Source: a virus
Lineage: Duplodnaviria; Heunggongvirae; Uroviricota; Caudoviricetes
Reading direction: 5' to 3' (one strand)
DNA length: 5,181 bases
Virus record (IMG/VR): IMGVR_UViG_3300039360_000012
The first letter of the stretch is position 1; every line of letters starts with the position of its first letter. The notes under the pieces were generated by a model. That model made no database searches. It saw only the letters and a list, made by a program, of their open reading frames with translations, and had not been told where the DNA came from. Positions 1-5,181 of this stretch are shown in pieces. A program made the position numbers and the translations under genes.

Positions 1-408
1 CGCTTTGAGCACGGTGTGACGGACTGTTACACACTGTTCCGGGATGCTTATCATCTGGCGGGGATTGAGATGCCGGATTTTACGCGGGAGGATGACTGGT
101 GGCGTCACGGTCAGAATCTCTATCTGGATAATCTGGAGGCAACGGGGCTGTATCAGGTGCCGTTGTCAGCGGCGCAGCCGGGCGATGTGCTGCTGTGCTG
201 CTTTGGTTCATCGGTGCCGAATCATGCCGCCATTTACTGTGGTGACGGCGAGCTGCTGCACCATATTCCTGAACAACTGAGCAAACGAGAGAGGTATACC
301 GACAAATGGCAGCGACGCACACACTCCCTCTGGCGTCACCGGGCATGGCACGCATCTGCCTTTACGGGGATTTGCAACGATTTGGCCGCCGCATCGACCT
401 TCGTGTGA
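1..408 (+). CDS. K: Tail assembly protein K, NlpC/P60-family peptidase C-terminal part; 5' end lies upstream of the window (partial)
   Basis: The reading frame is open from nt 1 (cgc ttt gag cac ggt gtg = RFEHGV) with no upstream stop, so the GTG at 16 is an ORF-finder artefact, not the real start. The translation (...HGVTDCYTLFRDAYHLAGIEMPDF...PGDVLLCCFGSSVPNHAAIYCGDGELLHHIPEQL...) matches my recollection of the lambda gpK C-terminus, including a Cys...His arrangement typical of NlpC/P60. Stop is TGA at 406-408. The 3' end overlaps gene I by 103 nt in another frame, as in lambda. Confidence 0.9.
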   Translation, partial: RFEHGVTDCYTLFRDAYHLAGIEMPDFTREDDWWRHGQNLYLDNLEATGLYQVPLSAAQPGDVLLCCFGSSVPNHAAIYCGDGELLHHIPEQLSKRERYTDKWQRRTHSLWRHRAWHASAFTGICNDLAAASTFV

Positions 409-947
409 AAACGGGAGCCGAAGCCATCCGGGCGCTTGCCACGCAGCTACCGTCGTTTCGCCAGAAACTGAATGAGGGCTGGTATCAGGTGCGCATTGCC
501 GGGCGTGATGCAGGCGAAACCGAATTATCTGCCCGTCTTAATGAGCCGCTGGCAAATGGTGCCGTGATCCACATTGTGCCGCGTCTGGCGGGAGCTAAAA
601 GTGGCGGTGTTTTTCAGGCAGTGCTGGGTGCGGCGCTAATTGCTACGGCAATCTGGATGCCAGGAATCAGTATCGCTTTCAGTAACATTCTCTTTTCTAT
701 GGGGGCAGCGATGACGCTTGGTGGTGTCGCACAGATGCTGGCCCCTAAACCCAAAACTCCACGTACACAGACAACGGATAACGGCAAACAGAACACCTAT
801 TTCTCCTCACTGGATAACATGGTTGCCCAGGGCAATGTCCTGCCTGTTCTGTACGGTGAAATGCGCGTGGGGTCACGTGTGGCATCTCAGGAGATCAGCA
901 CGGCAGATGAAGGGGATGGTGGTCAGGTTGTGGTAATTGGGCGGTAA
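306..947 (+). CDS. I: Tail assembly protein I (lambda gpI-like)
   Basis: ATG at 306-308 with a GAGG-containing purine run at 286-294 upstream; stop TAA at 945-947; 213 aa. The N-terminus (MAATHTLPLASPGMARICLYGDLQRFGRRIDLRVKTGAEAIRALATQLP) and C-terminus (KQNTYFSSLDNMVAQGNVLPVLYGEMRVGSRVASQEISTADEGDGGQVVVIGR) closely match lambda gpI as I recall it. It has the hydrophobic/Gly-Ala-rich central segment typical of gpI. The overlap with K is the characteristic lambdoid arrangement. Confidence 0.9.
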   Translation: MAATHTLPLASPGMARICLYGDLQRFGRRIDLRVKTGAEAIRALATQLPSFRQKLNEGWYQVRIAGRDAGETELSARLNEPLANGAVIHIVPRLAGAKSGGVFQAVLGAALIATAIWMPGISIAFSNILFSMGAAMTLGGVAQMLAPKPKTPRTQTTDNGKQNTYFSSLDNMVAQGNVLPVLYGEMRVGSRVASQEISTADEGDGGQVVVIGR

Positions 948-952
948 TATTA

Positions 953-1000
953 TTTACTCATGTTCTAACTGATTTAATATTTATATCGAACACTGATAAT
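953..1000 (+). promoter_or_regulatory. Candidate sigma70-type promoter region for the lipoprotein moron (AT-rich; exact -35/-10 assignment uncertain)
   Basis: The region between the I stop and the lipoprotein start is strongly AT-rich. It contains hexamers resembling -35/-10 elements, e.g. TTTACT (953-958) and TAATAT (975-980) with 16-nt spacing, and GATAAT (995-1000). Several alternative pairings exist, so the exact promoter is not resolved from sequence alone. Confidence 0.25.
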
Positions 1001-1019
1001 TATTCTGTTGGTTAGCTAT

Positions 1020-1358
1020 ATGAACAAAACGATTTTATTCTGCACGATTATTGCCTTAACAGGATGTAAATCTTTGGATTACGTAAAATCCGGAAAACCT
1101 GTAATGGAAGGTAATTCATTAAAAAATATTGATGAATTGTCAGGCTGCATATCCAGACAATGGGCTGGTAATGGAACACCTATAACATCCCTTCCTATTG
1201 AGAATGGGGTAAGCCTTTTAGTTCCACAGGCTATGGGTGGGTATGATGTTGTGCTTGATATCAAAAAAGCAGGAAATGGCAGTAGTTTTACTCTTTATGA
1301 ACGCGTACCAGCATTAACGCCAAAAATTTTTGCTGATAGTGTTAATGCATGTAAATAA
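1020..1358 (+). CDS. Small secreted lipoprotein (moron) inserted between tail genes I and J; predicted outer-membrane lipoprotein, function unknown (candidate lysogenic-conversion / superinfection-exclusion factor)
   Basis: ATG at 1020 gives MNKTILFCTIIALTG|CKS...: a basic n-region (K3), a hydrophobic h-region and a lipobox L-T-G-C (signal peptidase II type). The residue after the lipidated Cys is Lys, not Asp, so outer-membrane sorting is expected under the E. coli +2 rule. Mature protein is about 92 aa with two additional Cys. Stop is TAA at 1356-1358, followed immediately by TAG. The ORF track starts this ORF at an in-frame TTG at 1008, but the ATG at 1020 gives the canonical signal peptide. 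No strong Shine-Dalgarno is visible. Base composition is markedly AT-rich compared with flanking K/I/J. I do not recognise the protein as a named family. Confidence 0.7.
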   Translation: MNKTILFCTIIALTGCKSLDYVKSGKPVMEGNSLKNIDELSGCISRQWAGNGTPITSLPIENGVSLLVPQAMGGYDVVLDIKKAGNGSSFTLYERVPALTPKIFADSVNACK

Positions 1359-1382
1359 TAGTTAATCCTGCCGTAACTCATG

Positions 1383-1410
1383 AGCCGCCTTTTGGGCGGC
1401 TTTGTCGTTT
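1383..1410 (+). terminator. Candidate rho-independent terminator downstream of the lipoprotein gene
   Basis: Inverted repeat AGCCGCC (1383-1389) / GGCGGCT (1395-1401) around a short T-rich loop, followed by TTGTCGTTT. It is GC-rich and the T tract is imperfect. It lies 25 nt after the lipoprotein stop and just upstream of the J ribosome-binding site. Confidence 0.4.
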
Positions 1411-1424
1411 ATGGAGTGTGAGGA

Positions 1425-4400
1425 ATGGGTAAAGGAAGCAGTAAGGGGCATACCCCGCGCGAAGCAAAGGACAACCTGAAGTCCACGCAGTTGCTGAGTG
1501 TGATCGATGCCATCAGCGAAGGGCCGATAGAAGGTCCGGTGGATGGATTAAAAAGCGTGCTGCTGAACAGTACGCCGGTGCTGGACAGTGAAGGGAATAC
1601 CAACATCGCCGGTGTCACGGTGGTGTTCCGGGCAGGTGAGCAGGAGCAGACACCGCCGGAGGGTTTTGAATCCTCCGGATCCGAGACGGTGCTGGGTACG
1701 GAAGTGAAATATGACACGCCGATCACCCGGACCATCACGTCTGCAAACATCGACCGTCTGCGCTTTACCTTCGGTGTGCAGGCTCTGGTGGAAACCACCT
1801 CAAAGGGGGACAGGAATCCGTCGGAAGTCCGCCTGCTGGTTCAGATACAGCGTAACGGTGGCTGGGTGACGGAAAAAGACATCACCATTAAGGGTAAAAC
1901 CACCTCGCAGTATCTGGCCTCGGTGGTGGTGGATAACCTGCCTCCGCGCCCGTTCAATATCCGGATGCGCAGGATGACACCGGACAGCACCACAGACCAG
2001 CTGCAGAACAAAACGCTCTGGTCGTCATACACCGAAATCATCGATGTGAAACAGTGCTACCCGAACACGGCACTGGTCGGTGTGCAGGTGGACTCGGAGC
2101 AGTTCGGCAGCCAGCAGGTGAGCCGTAATTATCATCTTCGCGGGCGCATTCTGCAGGTGCCGTCGAACTATAACCCGCAGACGCGGCAATACAGCGGTAT
2201 CTGGGACGGAACGTTTAAACCGGCATACAGCAACAACATGGCCTGGTGTCTGTGGGATATGCTGACCCATCCGCGCTACGGCATGGGGAAGCGTCTCGGT
2301 GCGGCGGATGTGGACAAATGGGCGCTGTATGTCATCGGCCAGAATTGCGACCAGTCGGTGCCGGATGGCTTTGGTGGCACGGAGCCGCGCATAACCTGTA
2401 ATGCCTGGCTGACCACACAGCGTAAGGCGTGGGATGTTCTCAGTGATTTCTGCTCTGCGATGCGCTGTATGCCGGTATGGAACGGGCAGACGCTGACGTT
2501 CGTGCAGGACCGACCGTCGGATAAGGTGTGGACCTATAACCGCAGTAATGTGGTGATGCCGGATGATGGCGCGCCGTTCCGCTACAGCTTCAGCGCNNNN
2601 NNNNNNNNNNNNNNNNNNNNNNNNNNNNNNNNNNNNNNNNNAACGGCTGGGAGACGGCGACAGAGCTTGTGGAGGACACGCAGGCCATTGCCCGTTACGG
2701 TCGTAACGTCACGAAGATGGATGCCTTTGGCTGTACCAGTCGGGGGCAGGCACACCGCGCCGGGCTGTGGCTGATTAAAACGGAGCTGCTGGAAACGCAG
2801 ACCGTGGACTTCAGCGTGGGCGCAGAAGGGCTTCGCCATGTACCGGGCGATGTCATTGAAATCTGCGATGATGACTATGCGGGTATCAGCACAGGCGGGC
2901 GCGTGCTGGCGGTGAACAGCCAGGCGCGGACACTGACGCTCGACCGTGAAATCATGCTGCCATCCTCCGGCACCACGCTGATAAGCCTGGTTGACGGAAA
3001 TGGCAATCCGGTCAGCGTGGAGGTCCAGTCCGTCACCGACGGCGTGAAGGTGAAAGTGAGCCGTGTTCCTGACGGCGTTGCCGAATACAGCGTGTGGGGG
3101 CTGAAGCTGCCGACGCTGCGCCAGCGCCTGTTCCGCTGTGTGAGTATCCGGGAGAACGATGACGGTACGTATGCCATCACCGCCGTGCAGCATGTACCGG
3201 AAAAAGAAGCCATCGTGGATAACGGGGCGCACTTTGACGGCGACCAGAGCGGCACGGTGAATGGTGTCACGCCGCCAGCGGTGCAGCACCTGACTGCCGA
3301 AGTCACCGCAGACAGCGGGGAATATCAGGTACTGGCGCGATGGGACACGCCGAAGGTGGTGAAGGGGGTGAGCTTTATGCTTCGCCTGACCGTGGCAGCG
3401 GATGACGGCAGTGAGCGGCTTGTCAGCACAGCCCGGACGACGGAAACCACATACCGCTTCAGGCAACTGGCGCTGGGGCGTTACACGCTGACAGTCCGGG
3501 CGGTAAATGCGTGGGGACAGCAGGGCGATCCGGCGTCGGTATCGTTCCGGATTGCCGCACCGTCAGCGCCGTCGCGGATTGAGCTGACTCCGGGCTATTT
3601 TCAGATAACCGCCACGCCGCATCTTGCCGTTTATGACCCGACGGTACAGTTTGAGTTCTGGTTCTCGGAAAAGCGGATTGCGGATATCAGGCAGGTTGAA
3701 ACCACAGCCCGCTATCTTGGCACGGCGCTGTACTGGATAGCTGCCAGTATCAATATCAAGCCGGGCCATGATTATTATTTTTACATCCGCAGTGTGAACA
3801 CCGTTGGCAAATCGGCATTCGTGGAGGCTGTTGGCCAGCCGAGTGATGATGCATCCGGCTATCTGGATTTTTTCAAAGGAGAGATAGGGAAAACCCATCT
3901 GGCTCAGGAGTTGTGGGCGCAGATTGATAACGGTCAGCTTGCGCCTGACCTGGCTGAAATCAGGACGTCCATTACGGATGTCAGCAATGAAATCACGCAG
4001 ACCGTCAATAAGAAACTGGAAGACCAGAGTGCAGCGATCCAGCAGATACAGAAGGTTCAGGTTGATACAAATAATAACCTGAACAGCATGTGGGCTGTGA
4101 AGCTGCAGCAGATGCAGGACGGACGCCTTTATATCGCGGGTATCGGTGCCGGTATTGAGAACACCCCCGACGGTATGCAGAGTCAGGTGCTGCTGGCGGC
4201 AGACAGGATTGCGATGATTAATCCTGCGAATGGCAACACAAAGCCGATGTTTGTTGGTCAGGGCGATCAGATATTCATGAACGAAGTGTTCCTGAAATAC
4301 CTGACGGCTCCCACCATTACCAGCGGCGGTAATCCTCCGGCATTTTCCCTGACACCGGACGGGCGGCTGACGGCGAAAAATGCAGATATCAGCGGTAACG

Positions 4401-4900
4401 TGAATGCGAACTCCGGGACGCTCAACAATGTCACGATTAATCAGAACTGCCGGATTCTGGGAAAACTGTCAGCCAACCAGATTGAAGGCGATATTGTTAA
4501 AACGGTGGGCAAAGCTTTCCCCCGGGACTCCCGTGCACCGGAGCGGTGGCCATCAGGGACCATTACCGTCAGGGTTTATGACGATCAGCCGTTTGACCGG
4601 CAAATTGTTATTCCAGCGGTGGCTTTCAGCGGTGCCAGACATGAACGGGAGAATAGCGATACTTATTCGTCATGCCGCCTGATAGTGAAGAAAAACGGGG
4701 CTGAAATTTATAACCGAACGGCTCTGGATAATACTCTGATTTACACGGGTGTTATTGATATGCCTGCAGGCAGTGGCGTAATGACACTGGAGTTTTCGGT
4801 ATCAGCATGGTGGGTAAATGGCTGGTATCCCACAGCAAGTATCAGCGATTTGCTGGTTGTGGTGATGAAGAAAGCCACCGCAGGCATCAGTATCAGCTGA
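1425..4900 (+). CDS. J: Tail tip / host-specificity (central tail fibre) protein J, lambda gpJ-like; single gene interrupted by a 45-N run (2597-2641) that breaks the apparent frame
   Basis: ATG at 1425 with GGAG at 1413-1416; the N-terminus [54 protein letters not shown] matches lambda gpJ as I recall it. The two ORF-track pieces (1425..2774 and 2669..4900) are one gene: upstream of the N run the frame reads ...[12 protein letters not shown] (through codon gcN at 2595-2597), and directly after it, at 2642, the other frame reads [30 protein letters not shown]..., contiguous gpJ sequence. Stop is TGA at 4898-4900. Total length is about 1158 codons, similar to lambda gpJ (about 1130 aa). The central part contains fibronectin-III-like segments. 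The C-terminal third is recognisably gpJ-like but diverged from lambda. Confidence 0.9.
2597..2641. other. Run of 45 ambiguous bases (N): assembly gap or masked segment inside gene J
   Basis: Directly visible as n x45. Flanking coding frames differ by one nucleotide, so the true length of the missing segment is not 45. Confidence 0.95.
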
Positions 4901-4918
4901 ATTTTATAACCCCAATAC

Positions 4919-4946
4919 GGGCGTCAGAAATGACGCCTTTTTTATT
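4919..4946 (+). terminator. Rho-independent terminator downstream of J
   Basis: Perfect 7-bp stem GGCGTCA (4920-4926) / TGACGCC (4931-4937) with a GAAA tetraloop (4927-4930), followed by TTTTTTATT (4938-4946). It lies 19 nt after the J stop codon. Confidence 0.65.
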
Positions 4947-4967: not shown

Positions 4968-5181
4968 ATGCGTAAATTATGTGCTGTTATTCTGTCCGCA
5001 GTAGTCTGGCTGGTTGCCGCTGGTACGCCAGCGAGCGCAGCAGAGCATCAGTCCACACTAAGCGCCGGGTATCTTCAGGCCCATACTGATATGCCAGGCA
5101 GTGATGACCTGAAGGGCATTAACGTGAAATACCGTTATGAATTTACGGACACGCTGGGGCTGGTGACGTCATTCAGTTATG
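4968..5181 (+). CDS. lom: Lom-like outer-membrane protein (Ail/Lom/OmpX family beta-barrel), 5' part; continues beyond the window end
   Basis: ATG at 4968 is preceded by GAGAGG (4957-4962) at 5-nt spacing. The translation MRKLCAVILSAVVWLVAAGTPASA|AEHQSTLSAGYLQAHTDMPGSDDLKGINVKYRYEFTDTLGLVTSFSY has a Sec signal peptide ending in ASA. The mature start, with alternating aromatic/hydrophobic residues and the motif GINVKYRYE, matches lambda Lom and the Ail family as I recall them. Position immediately downstream of J is the same as lom in lambda. No stop codon before the window end. Confidence 0.8.
   Translation, partial: MRKLCAVILSAVVWLVAAGTPASAAEHQSTLSAGYLQAHTDMPGSDDLKGINVKYRYEFTDTLGLVTSFSY

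What the first reader, a model, noticed from the sequence alone, without database searches (positions are those of the whole stretch)
1020..1358. Uncharacterised outer-membrane lipoprotein gene inserted between tail genes I and J
In lambda, I and J are separated by only a short intergenic spacer (established knowledge); here they are 477 nt apart and the extra DNA encodes a 112-aa protein with a textbook lipoprotein signal peptide (MNKTILFCTIIALTG|C, +2 Lys, so outer-membrane sorting is expected). The mature 92-aa product has no feature I can assign to a known family. Small prophage-encoded outer-membrane lipoproteins include Cor (phi80/N15/HK022) and Llp (T5), which block the phage's own receptor FhuA, and Bor (lambda), which confers serum resistance. 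This gene sits next to the receptor-binding gene J, so it is a strong candidate for a new superinfection-exclusion or lysogenic-conversion factor. Function is inferred from context only.
Basis: partly seen in the sequence, partly recalled or inferred. Interest (0 to 1): 0.8.

Follow-up and report, generated by a model that had tools for sequence, protein, structure and literature searches.

The report
Prophage tail-cluster lipoprotein moron, function untested
A small outer-membrane lipoprotein gene really has been inserted between tail genes I and J of a lambda-like E. coli prophage, but it belongs to a phage gene family already flagged in 2004 and 2020, its function is still untested, and the evidence here weakens the idea that it blocks the phage's own receptor.

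Summary
An ORF at 1020-1358 encodes a 112-aa prolipoprotein in a 35% GC island between tail genes I and J. A related phage with a 60-nt I-J spacer shows the insertion spans about 950-1378. The gene is under purifying selection. It occurs in 339 of 5426 complete E. coli genomes, at about 4% of lambda-type I-J junctions.

It is not an orphan. It belongs to phrog_914, the family of phiKO2 Gp19 (annotated "putative moron gene product") and Serratia phage OS31 p54 (proposed in print as a possible Cor analogue, untested). In 127 of 131 members there is a lipobox, the +2 residue is never Asp, and two further cysteines are conserved.

The mature domain shows no homology to Cor, Llp, Bor or the tested mEp exclusion lipoproteins. 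The predicted fold is a generic alpha+beta domain.

The own-receptor-blocker idea is weakened:
- The same allele sits beside at least four J C-terminal types.
- Relatives occupy K-I and chaperone/tape-measure slots.
- Phage Fraca carries both a homologue and a cor gene.

Best guess: an accessory envelope factor, probably phage exclusion not tied to J's receptor-binding domain. The function is inferred only.

The parts
1..408 (+). 3' part of tail-tip assembly gene K (NlpC/P60 domain), cut by the window start
   Evidence: Pfam NLPC_P60 E = 4.3e-13. RefSeq annotation 'C40 family peptidase' in the identical locus L001.
372..947 (+). Tail assembly gene I (RefSeq start 372; the ORF is open from ATG 306)
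   Evidence: Pfam Lambda_tail_I E = 5e-24. L001 annotation 19433-20008 maps to window 372-947.
950..1378 (+). Inserted low-GC DNA (the moron) relative to the 60-nt empty I-J spacer
   Evidence: Alignment with PhiR47_1. GC 34.7% against 55-58% in the flanks.
948..1019 (+). AT-rich 72-nt leader. Only weak sigma-70-like matches; the best -10 is GATAAT at 995-1000.
   Evidence: The tool scan found no + strand promoter. A permissive scan gives TTAATA-15-GATAAT (9/12, poor spacer) or TTTAAT-16-GATAAT (8/12). This is not evidence of a promoter.
1020..1358 (+). Lipoprotein CDS: 112-aa precursor, 97-aa mature
   Evidence: phrog_914 E = 7e-33. Purifying selection. AF2 pLDDT 83.7.
1020..1064 (+). Signal peptide, residues 1-15
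   Evidence: Read from the sequence: K3 n-region and hydrophobic ILFCTIIALTG. Conserved across the family.
1056..1067 (+). Lipobox L13-T14-G15-C16; the lipidated Cys codon is 1065-1067
   Evidence: 127 of 131 family members have a lipobox, and the +2 residue is never Asp.
1382..1410 (+). Intrinsic-terminator-like hairpin plus T-run. It is ancestral to the I-J spacer and now follows the lipoprotein gene.
   Evidence: dG -15.4 kcal/mol, z = -3.5. Present in the empty site as well.
1425..4900 (+). Host-specificity gene J. The reading frame is broken artificially by the N-run at 2597-2641.
   Evidence: The C-terminal 199 aa are 90-96% identical to J of PhiR47_1, 2G7b, VT1-Sakai and PPompW.

Best explanation
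It is a moron: about 430 bp of horizontally acquired, AT-rich DNA inserted between the stop codon of tail gene I and the pre-existing I-J hairpin of a lambda-like prophage. It carries one gene of the phrog_914 / phiKO2-gp19 family. The product is a prolipoprotein. [quoted passage not shown] There it would be a 97-residue periplasmic protein: a tether of about 12 residues, then a compact alpha+beta domain probably locked by a C43-C111 disulfide. It is not a virion or assembly component. Because no terminator separates it from I, it is transcribed at least with the late tail operon. Transcription in the lysogen from a weak promoter in the 72-nt leader is possible but not shown. The most likely job is accessory modification of the envelope that excludes incoming phages, and possibly spares progeny from debris. 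This would act by binding an outer-membrane or periplasmic component, or the penetrating tail tip. It would not act as a dedicated blocker of the receptor recognised by this phage's own J C-terminus. Shown here: the insertion, the coding status, the lipoprotein features, family membership, the recurrent tail-module location, and the lack of linkage to the J receptor-binding domain. Inferred: localisation, the disulfide, expression timing and the exclusion function.
For: Insertion and composition. Real gene under purifying selection. Lipobox in 127 of 131 members, +2 never Asp, exactly two further Cys in 112 of 127. Confident compact fold. Family membership: phrog_914; 125 representatives of about 112 aa; phiKO2 Gp19 at 63 bits and Fraca at 75 bits against the family HMM. 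Recurrent location in the siphophage tail module, in three slots, each followed by a terminator and each with GC below its flanks. One of those slots is exactly that of the HK97 gp15 exclusion moron (PMC3594210). Precedents where small phage lipoproteins in or beside tail genes are exclusion factors: Llp, Cor, and mEp Lpp021 and Lpp010, which were tested experimentally (PMC11893012). Against own-receptor specificity: the same allele accompanies J C-termini of at least 89%, about 67% and about 52% identity, or not alignable, in 30, 4, 6 and 3 of 44 loci. This J type is in 4013 of 5426 genomes, and phages carrying it lack the gene. Fraca has both a homologue and cor.
Confidence: 0.4

Rival explanations
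1. Cor/Llp-type blocker of the phage's own receptor. The lipoprotein would bind the periplasmic face of the outer-membrane protein recognised by this prophage's J and lock it in a form that cannot support infection.
For: Small outer-membrane lipoproteins of siphophages do this: Llp on FhuA, Cor, and Lpp021 and Lpp010, which exclude phages of their own receptor type. The same suggestion was published for OS31 p54. 68% of loci carry one J C-terminal type.
Against: The mature domain has no homology to any of these: at most 0.6 bits, against 46-61 bits for true members. It is longer (97 aa against about 55-80). Known examples sit beside the receptor-binding end of J or the RBP gene; this gene abuts J's conserved 5' end, or lies in K-I or G/T-TMP slots. 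An identical allele accompanies at least four J C-terminal types. The 68% figure matches the background abundance of that type. Phages with that J type lack the gene. Fraca carries both a homologue and cor.
Confidence: 0.15
2. Bor-like lysogenic-conversion factor that benefits the host rather than acting on phages, for example through serum resistance, adhesion or envelope-stress tolerance. On this reading its place in the tail operon is incidental.
For: Lambdoid morons such as bor and lom do this, and a Lom/Ail gene lies just downstream of J here. The closest solved fold is Flpp3, a Francisella lipoprotein described as a virulence determinant. Chromosomal, non-phage homologues exist. The I-J gap also takes unrelated cargo.
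Against: There is no homology to Bor: no Pfam hit and -0.6 bits for the mature domains. No own promoter is demonstrated, and one homologue is translationally coupled to K. The repeated tail-module location across 26-50% identity in lambda-like, HK97-like and N15-like phages argues for more than chance.
Confidence: 0.2
3. Late-gene helper of the phage's own lytic cycle. It would be made with the tail proteins and modify the outer membrane so that progeny are not lost on debris or vesicles, or so that release is aided.
For: No terminator separates it from I, and in L080 it overlaps K, so it is co-transcribed with late tail genes.
Against: It is absent from about 96% of equivalent prophages, so it is dispensable. 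Protection from debris again implies receptor specificity, which is not seen. It has no spanin-like features such as a C-terminal transmembrane segment, and it is not in a lysis cassette.
Confidence: 0.1
4. Periplasmic inhibitor, in the manner of an immunity protein, of the NlpC/P60 peptidase domain of tail protein K, which it usually follows.
For: It lies directly downstream of K in most lineages. K has an NlpC/P60 domain.
Confidence: 0.04

Closest known systems
phiKO2 Gp19 / phrog_914 family (also Serratia phage OS31 p54, Escherichia phages Fraca VUF53278.1 and LMessi)
   Same: Homologous over the full length: phrog_914 E = 7e-33, and Gp19 scores 63 bits against the family HMM. Size is about 111-113 aa, with a lipobox, two conserved cysteines, low GC, a following terminator, and a location inside the tail-tip gene cluster of a temperate lambda-like siphophage.
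   Different: Only 26-31% identical. Those genes sit between K and I, whereas this one sits between I and J and uses the pre-existing I-J hairpin. None has been tested experimentally.
HK97 gp15 moron (superinfection exclusion; YebO-like inner-membrane protein)
   Same: A moron inside the tail operon of a lambdoid phage. Homologues of this lipoprotein in L065-L070 occupy the same slot, between the tail chaperone and tape-measure genes. gp15 excludes according to the incoming phage's tail, not its receptor, and it has chromosomal homologues.
   Different: gp15 is a small inner-membrane protein, not an outer-membrane lipoprotein. Sequence relatedness was not tested here and is not expected.
Cor (phi80/N15/HK022/T1) and T5 Llp
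   Same: Small phage-encoded lipoproteins with outer-membrane sorting signals, encoded among tail genes.
   Different: There is no homology once the signal peptide is removed. They are shorter (mature about 55-62 aa against 97), lie beside the receptor-binding end or RBP gene, and are linked to FhuA use. Fraca has cor in addition to a homologue of this gene.
mEpimmI Lpp021 (Pfam PF24052 Phage_lipoprotein) and Lpp010
   Same: Lipoprotein genes in the structural cluster of temperate coliphages with K/I/J-type tail tips, shown experimentally to exclude phages.
   Different: They are unrelated in sequence, 72-82 aa long, encoded on the opposite strand immediately downstream of J, and track the receptor type.
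Lambda Bor (PF06291)
   Same: A prophage moron encoding an outer-membrane lipoprotein of similar length (97-aa precursor).
   Different: No homology. Bor lies next to the lysis genes on the opposite strand, and its function is serum resistance.
Flpp3 (DUF3568) / BamC N-terminal domain fold
   Different: Sequence identity is 6-10%. The Foldseek E-value is only 5e-3 and TM about 0.5. The fold is common (DUF302, KA1 and Bet v 1-like domains match equally well), so this gives no functional inference.

Membership tests
Bacterial lipoprotein (Lgt/Lsp/Lnt substrate, Lol-sorted to the outer membrane) | N-terminal signal peptide with a positive n-region and hydrophobic h-region, ending in a lipobox [LVI][ASTVI][GAS]C | tested here: met
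   MNKTILFCTIIALTG|C. A lipobox is present in 127 of 131 family members.
Bacterial lipoprotein (Lgt/Lsp/Lnt substrate, Lol-sorted to the outer membrane) | No Asp at +2 (the inner-membrane retention signal in E. coli) | tested here: met
   +2 is Lys here. Asp occurs at +2 in 0 of 127 family members.
Bacterial lipoprotein (Lgt/Lsp/Lnt substrate, Lol-sorted to the outer membrane) | Actual lipidation, globomycin-sensitive processing and outer-membrane localisation | not testable with these tools
   Needs labelling and fractionation experiments.
Moron (Juhala/Hendrix sense) | Extra DNA between two genes that are adjacent in related phages | tested here: met
   The empty site in PhiR47_1 has a 60-nt spacer. 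About 8,300 lambda-type I-J junctions occur in E. coli against 351 filled ones.
Moron (Juhala/Hendrix sense) | Base composition different from the flanks | tested here: met
   34.7% against 55-58% GC. The same trend holds in all homologous loci.
Moron (Juhala/Hendrix sense) | Own terminator | tested here: met
   Hairpin plus T-run at 1382-1410, dG -15.4. In this slot it is the ancestral I-J hairpin. In the K-I and G/T-TMP slots a terminator accompanies the gene.
Moron (Juhala/Hendrix sense) | Own promoter and expression from the repressed prophage | tested here: inconclusive
   Only weak sigma-70-like matches in an AT-rich leader. One homologue overlaps the K stop codon. Needs RNA-seq or 5' RACE.
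phrog_914 / phiKO2 Gp19 family | Full-length profile match | tested here: met
   phrog_914 E = 7.3e-33, residues 1-112 on profile positions 1-118 of 118. The family HMM recognises Gp19 (63 bits) and the Fraca homologue (75 bits).
phrog_914 / phiKO2 Gp19 family | About 112 aa, lipobox, two conserved Cys (positions 43 and 111), conserved P27, W48 and G63 | tested here: met
   Alignments A2 and A3. Cysteine census.
Cor family | Sequence homology to Cor | tested here: not met
   Mature Fraca Cor scores 0.6 bits against the family HMM.
Cor family | Gene located beside the receptor-binding end of J or the tail-fibre genes, and linked to receptor (FhuA) use | tested here: not met
   The gene lies at the 5' end of J. 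It shows no linkage to the J C-terminal type.
T5 Llp | Sequence or fold homology to Llp | tested here: not met
Lambda Bor (PF06291) | Match to the Pfam Lambda_Bor model or to the Bor sequence | tested here: not met
   No Pfam family at E <= 1. Mature Bor scores -0.6 bits.
Pfam PF24052 Phage_lipoprotein (mEp021 Lpp021 type) | Match to PF24052 | tested here: not met
   mEp021 gp81 matches at E = 5.6e-31. This protein has no Pfam hit.
Superinfection-exclusion proteins in general | Expression reduces infection by specific phages | not testable with these tools
   No experimental report was found for any family member.

The most novel reading that the evidence does not exclude
The family is an outer-membrane-anchored, periplasmic counterpart of HK97 gp15 or of the Gram-positive Ltp. 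On this reading it is a tail-module-linked lipoprotein that stops infection after adsorption. It would intercept the penetrating tail tip or tape-measure protein of lambda-like siphophages, independently of which outer-membrane receptor J recognises. That would explain why it travels with the K/I/J/TMP block and not with the J receptor-binding domain.
Probability: 0.12. Interest if true: 0.7.

Novelty: new member of a known kind. Interest (0 to 1): 0.35.

Why it matters
About 6% of complete E. coli genomes carry this conserved gene with no known function, and relatives occur in Klebsiella, Enterobacter, Kluyvera and Serratia prophages. If it excludes phages it would add a fourth unrelated family of phage exclusion lipoproteins. 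A mechanism not tied to the receptor-binding domain would be relevant to phage therapy host-range prediction and to understanding how tail tips cross the envelope. As it stands it is a well-defined, cheap-to-test candidate rather than a surprise: moron-encoded envelope proteins in lambdoid tail operons are a familiar theme, and the Cor-analogue idea is already in print for this family.

Tried and rejected
- **Curated families:** Pfam, NCBIfam and PADLOC scans gave nothing. The only NCBIfam hit was VirB7, on the signal peptide alone at 12.7 bits.
- **PDB sequence search:** a profile search returned nothing at E <= 10.
- **Known lipoproteins:** direct HMM comparison with Cor, Llp, Bor, mEp021 gp81 and mEp010 gp116 showed similarity in the signal peptide only.
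- **Promoter:** I searched for a convincing promoter and found only weak matches.
- **J-type linkage:** I tested for linkage to the J C-terminal type and rejected it. The regular expression missed many alleles, so one search replaces it.
- **Long profile hits:** P0091 is an Ig_7 repeat protein and therefore spurious. P0115 was not resolved.
- **Rfam:** no match in the window.
- **Literature:** nothing for WP_001332187 or phrog_914. The phiKO2 paper is not held. The BASEL and telomere-phage papers say nothing about this gene.
- **Locus scans:** The search for related loci failed with the broad alignment because it had no conserved stretch. The genome-contig scan gave a single Kluyvera locus.
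- **Rejected readings:** a junk ORF is rejected because of purifying selection. A virion or assembly protein is rejected because the export signal is conserved. A spanin is rejected because there is no lysis-cassette context and no C-terminal transmembrane segment.

Full report
**1. Observation**

The window carries the 3' end of tail gene K (to 408; NlpC/P60) and gene I (372/306-947; Lambda_tail_I, E = 5e-24). Then come a 477-nt gap and gene J (1425-4900, interrupted by a 45-N masked run at 2597-2641). In the gap, ATG 1020 to TAA 1358 encodes 112 aa beginning MNKTILFCTIIALTG|CKSLD. GC falls to 34.7% over 950-1378, against 55.4% in I and 57.7% in J.

Phage PhiR47_1 has I and J flanks that are 86-99% identical, and its I-J spacer is only 60 nt. 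The alignment puts the extra DNA at about 950-1378. It also shows that the hairpin plus T-run at 1382-1410 (dG -15.4 kcal/mol) is present in the empty site too (dG -15.2). That hairpin is therefore an ancestral I-J spacer element, which the inserted gene now uses.

The mature protein is 97 residues, not 92.

**2. It is a real gene**

- The 491-nt region is found at 95% identity or better in 339 of 5426 complete E. coli genomes. It is always prophage DNA and is annotated "hypothetical protein" (WP_001332187.1).
- The corresponding empty junction occurs about 8,300 times in 4,254 genomes, so roughly 4% of lambda-type I-J junctions are filled.
- Among 57 E. coli-type copies from IMG/VR there are 14 alleles, with 11 synonymous and 6 nonsynonymous variants (normalised ratio about 0.16). 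Two homologues of about 50% identity give dN/dS = 0.07.
- A few copies are frameshifted or truncated (L060-L062, L071), as expected in decaying prophages.

**3. Family**

Pfam, NCBIfam and PADLOC give nothing. PHROGs gives a full-length match to phrog_914, function unknown (E = 7e-33).

Close relatives (48-62% identity) are in Jejubacter, Kluyvera, Klebsiella and Enterobacter. A profile search of 1.84 billion representatives finds 125 clusters, nearly all 105-125 aa.

Across the family the invariant positions are the lipobox Cys, C43 and C111. A lipobox is present in 127 of 131 members, the +2 residue is never Asp, and 112 of 127 have exactly two further cysteines. That indicates an outer-membrane-sorted lipoprotein with one conserved disulfide; the localisation and the disulfide are inferences.

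AlphaFold2 gives a confident compact alpha+beta domain (pLDDT 83.7, pTM 0.76). The fold searches are uninformative:
- Foldseek against PDB finds nothing significant.
- BFVD yields only an uncharacterised Pseudomonas phage protein.

**4. The family is already in the record**

Querying the phage collection with the Fraca homologue finds Klebsiella phage phiKO2 Gp19 and Serratia phage OS31.
- Gp19 is a true member (63 bits against the family HMM). Its GenBank annotation reads [quoted passage not shown], with a putative terminator right after it, in the order K-gp19-terminator-I-terminator-J.
- The OS31 paper notes that p54 is 44% identical to Fraca VUF53278.1 and has a lipoprotein signal. It says p54 "might be an analog of Cor proteins" on the basis of position and size (PMC7556043).
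- No experiment on any member was found.

**5. Genomic contexts**

Members within about 26-60% identity sit in the tail module of temperate lambda-like siphophages, in three slots:
- **K-LP-I-J:** Fraca, LMessi, phiKO2, the Kluyvera prophage, L063, L064, L072, L073, L079 and L080.
- **I-LP-J:** the E. coli form.
- **Between the G/T chaperone genes and the tape-measure gene:** L065-L070. This is the slot of the first described moron, HK97 gene 15, whose product is a superinfection-exclusion protein that acts according to the incoming phage's tail rather than its receptor (PMC3594210).

In every representative the gene's GC is 5-17 points below its flanks, and the gene is followed directly by a GC hairpin plus T-run.

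Upstream signals are weak. In the window the best matches are TTAATA-15-GATAAT or TTTAAT-16-GATAAT, in AT-rich DNA. In L080 the start codon overlaps the K stop. Co-transcription with the late tail genes is therefore expected, while lysogenic expression is unproven.

More distant members lie in other phage regions (L084 in a replication module, L085) or in a chromosomal, high-GC context between a UvrD-type helicase gene and an AI-2E transporter gene (L081/L082). This echoes the Xanthomonas homologue noted for Gp19.

Only one of 185,579 species-representative genomes has a close relative.

**6. Test of the "blocks its own receptor" idea**

If the protein masked the receptor recognised by J, it should track J's C-terminal receptor-binding region. 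It does not.
- Of 44 loci with a lipoprotein at least 90% identical and room for a full J, 30 have the window's J C-terminal type (89% identity or more). Another 4 have a type about 67% identical, 6 a type about 52% identical, and 3 have no alignable C-terminus. The J N-terminus stays 89-100% identical throughout.
- The majority type is simply the commonest in E. coli: it matches in 4,013 of 5,426 genomes.
- Sequenced phages with that type (PhiR47_1, 2G7b, VT1-Sakai, PPompW and others) lack the gene.
- The gene abuts J's conserved 5' end, about 3.4 kb from the receptor-binding 3' end. By contrast cor, llp and the experimentally tested mEp lipoproteins lie right beside the receptor-binding end or the RBP gene.
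- Fraca encodes both a homologue of this gene and an annotated cor.
- With signal peptides removed, Cor, Bor and mEp010 gp116 score at most 0.6 bits against the family HMM, and Llp and mEp021 gp81 give no reportable match. True members score 46-61 bits.

**7. Interpretation**

The solid part is this: a horizontally acquired moron encodes an exported, probably outer-membrane, disulfide-bonded lipoprotein of a phage-borne family. The gene is maintained by selection and is repeatedly lodged in the tail-tip region.

The functional part is inference by analogy. Small envelope proteins encoded by morons in or next to siphophage tail genes are, where tested, exclusion factors: gp15, Cor, Llp, Lpp021 and Lpp010.

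I therefore favour an accessory envelope role in excluding phages that is not specified by this phage's own J receptor-binding domain (confidence about 0.4). The rivals are:
- a Bor-like host-fitness factor (0.2);
- a classical blocker of the phage's own receptor (0.15);
- a late-cycle helper (0.1);
- a K-peptidase inhibitor (0.04).

The I-J gap also holds an HNH endonuclease gene in mEp021. Permissiveness of the site may therefore explain part of the positional pattern.

**8. Verdict**

This is a new, uncharacterised member of a known kind of element, the lambdoid tail-operon moron encoding an envelope protein. The family and the Cor-analogue hypothesis are already noted in public records. 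Interest is moderate (0.35): it is a clean, testable candidate that is widespread in E. coli, but it is not surprising to a specialist.

Noticed in passing
window 2597-2641: A run of 45 N inside gene J. The reading frames on its two sides differ (1425 frame against 2669 frame), so the masked length does not match the real sequence and J appears split into two ORFs.
   Followed up: partly
window 4918-4946 and 4968-5181: A terminator-like hairpin (gggcgtcagaaatgacgcc followed by a T-run) follows the J stop. After it comes the start of a Lom/Ail-type outer-membrane beta-barrel gene (MRKLCAVILSAVV...), which is a second envelope moron in the same window.
   Followed up: partly
window 1382-1410; L074 2162-2190; L088 6007-6029: A strong hairpin plus T-run is conserved in the I-J spacer even in phages without the insert, and phiKO2 annotates a terminator there too. 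So an intrinsic terminator sits inside the late tail operon just before J. Its role (attenuation, or dependence on Q antitermination) was not examined.
   Followed up: partly
L003 5647-5994; L002 5725-5994: LMessi and Fraca carry a second, unrelated lipoprotein gene (MRKFLSILACSLIIVGC...) immediately upstream of the family homologue, giving two tandem lipoprotein genes between K and I. Fraca's annotated start appears too far downstream and omits the signal peptide.
   Followed up: partly
L075 45958-46524 (mEp021): mEp021 has an HNH endonuclease gene inserted between I and J. The I-J gap is therefore a recurrent insertion site for unrelated cargo.
   Followed up: no
L001 13393-26863 (E. coli STEC1575, Qin/ydfJ site): The prophage that matches the window exactly is rearranged. 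The M-L-K-I-LP-J block is inverted relative to the head and tail-shaft genes, and it is flanked by truncated tape-measure and Lom/Ail pseudogene fragments. It is probably a defective or recombinant prophage.
   Followed up: no
L081 879-2167; L082 236-1524: A high-GC chromosomal family member (P0044) is followed 39 nt later by a conserved 302-aa secreted protein with no Pfam or PHROG match. The pair lies between a UvrD-like helicase gene and an AI-2E transporter gene. This may be a bacterial ancestor or partner system, in line with the Xanthomonas XCC2962 note in the phiKO2 record.
   Followed up: partly
L063 6045-10001; L037: L063 has about 4 kb of extra DNA between K and the lipoprotein gene. 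L037 shows K and the J N-terminus about 5 kb upstream of I and the lipoprotein gene, which suggests duplicated or rearranged tail-tip modules.
   Followed up: no
P0115 (782 aa): A long protein with six weak matches to the family profile and no Pfam domain. Its nature is not resolved. The similar hit P0091 is an Ig_7 repeat protein and is spurious.
   Followed up: partly
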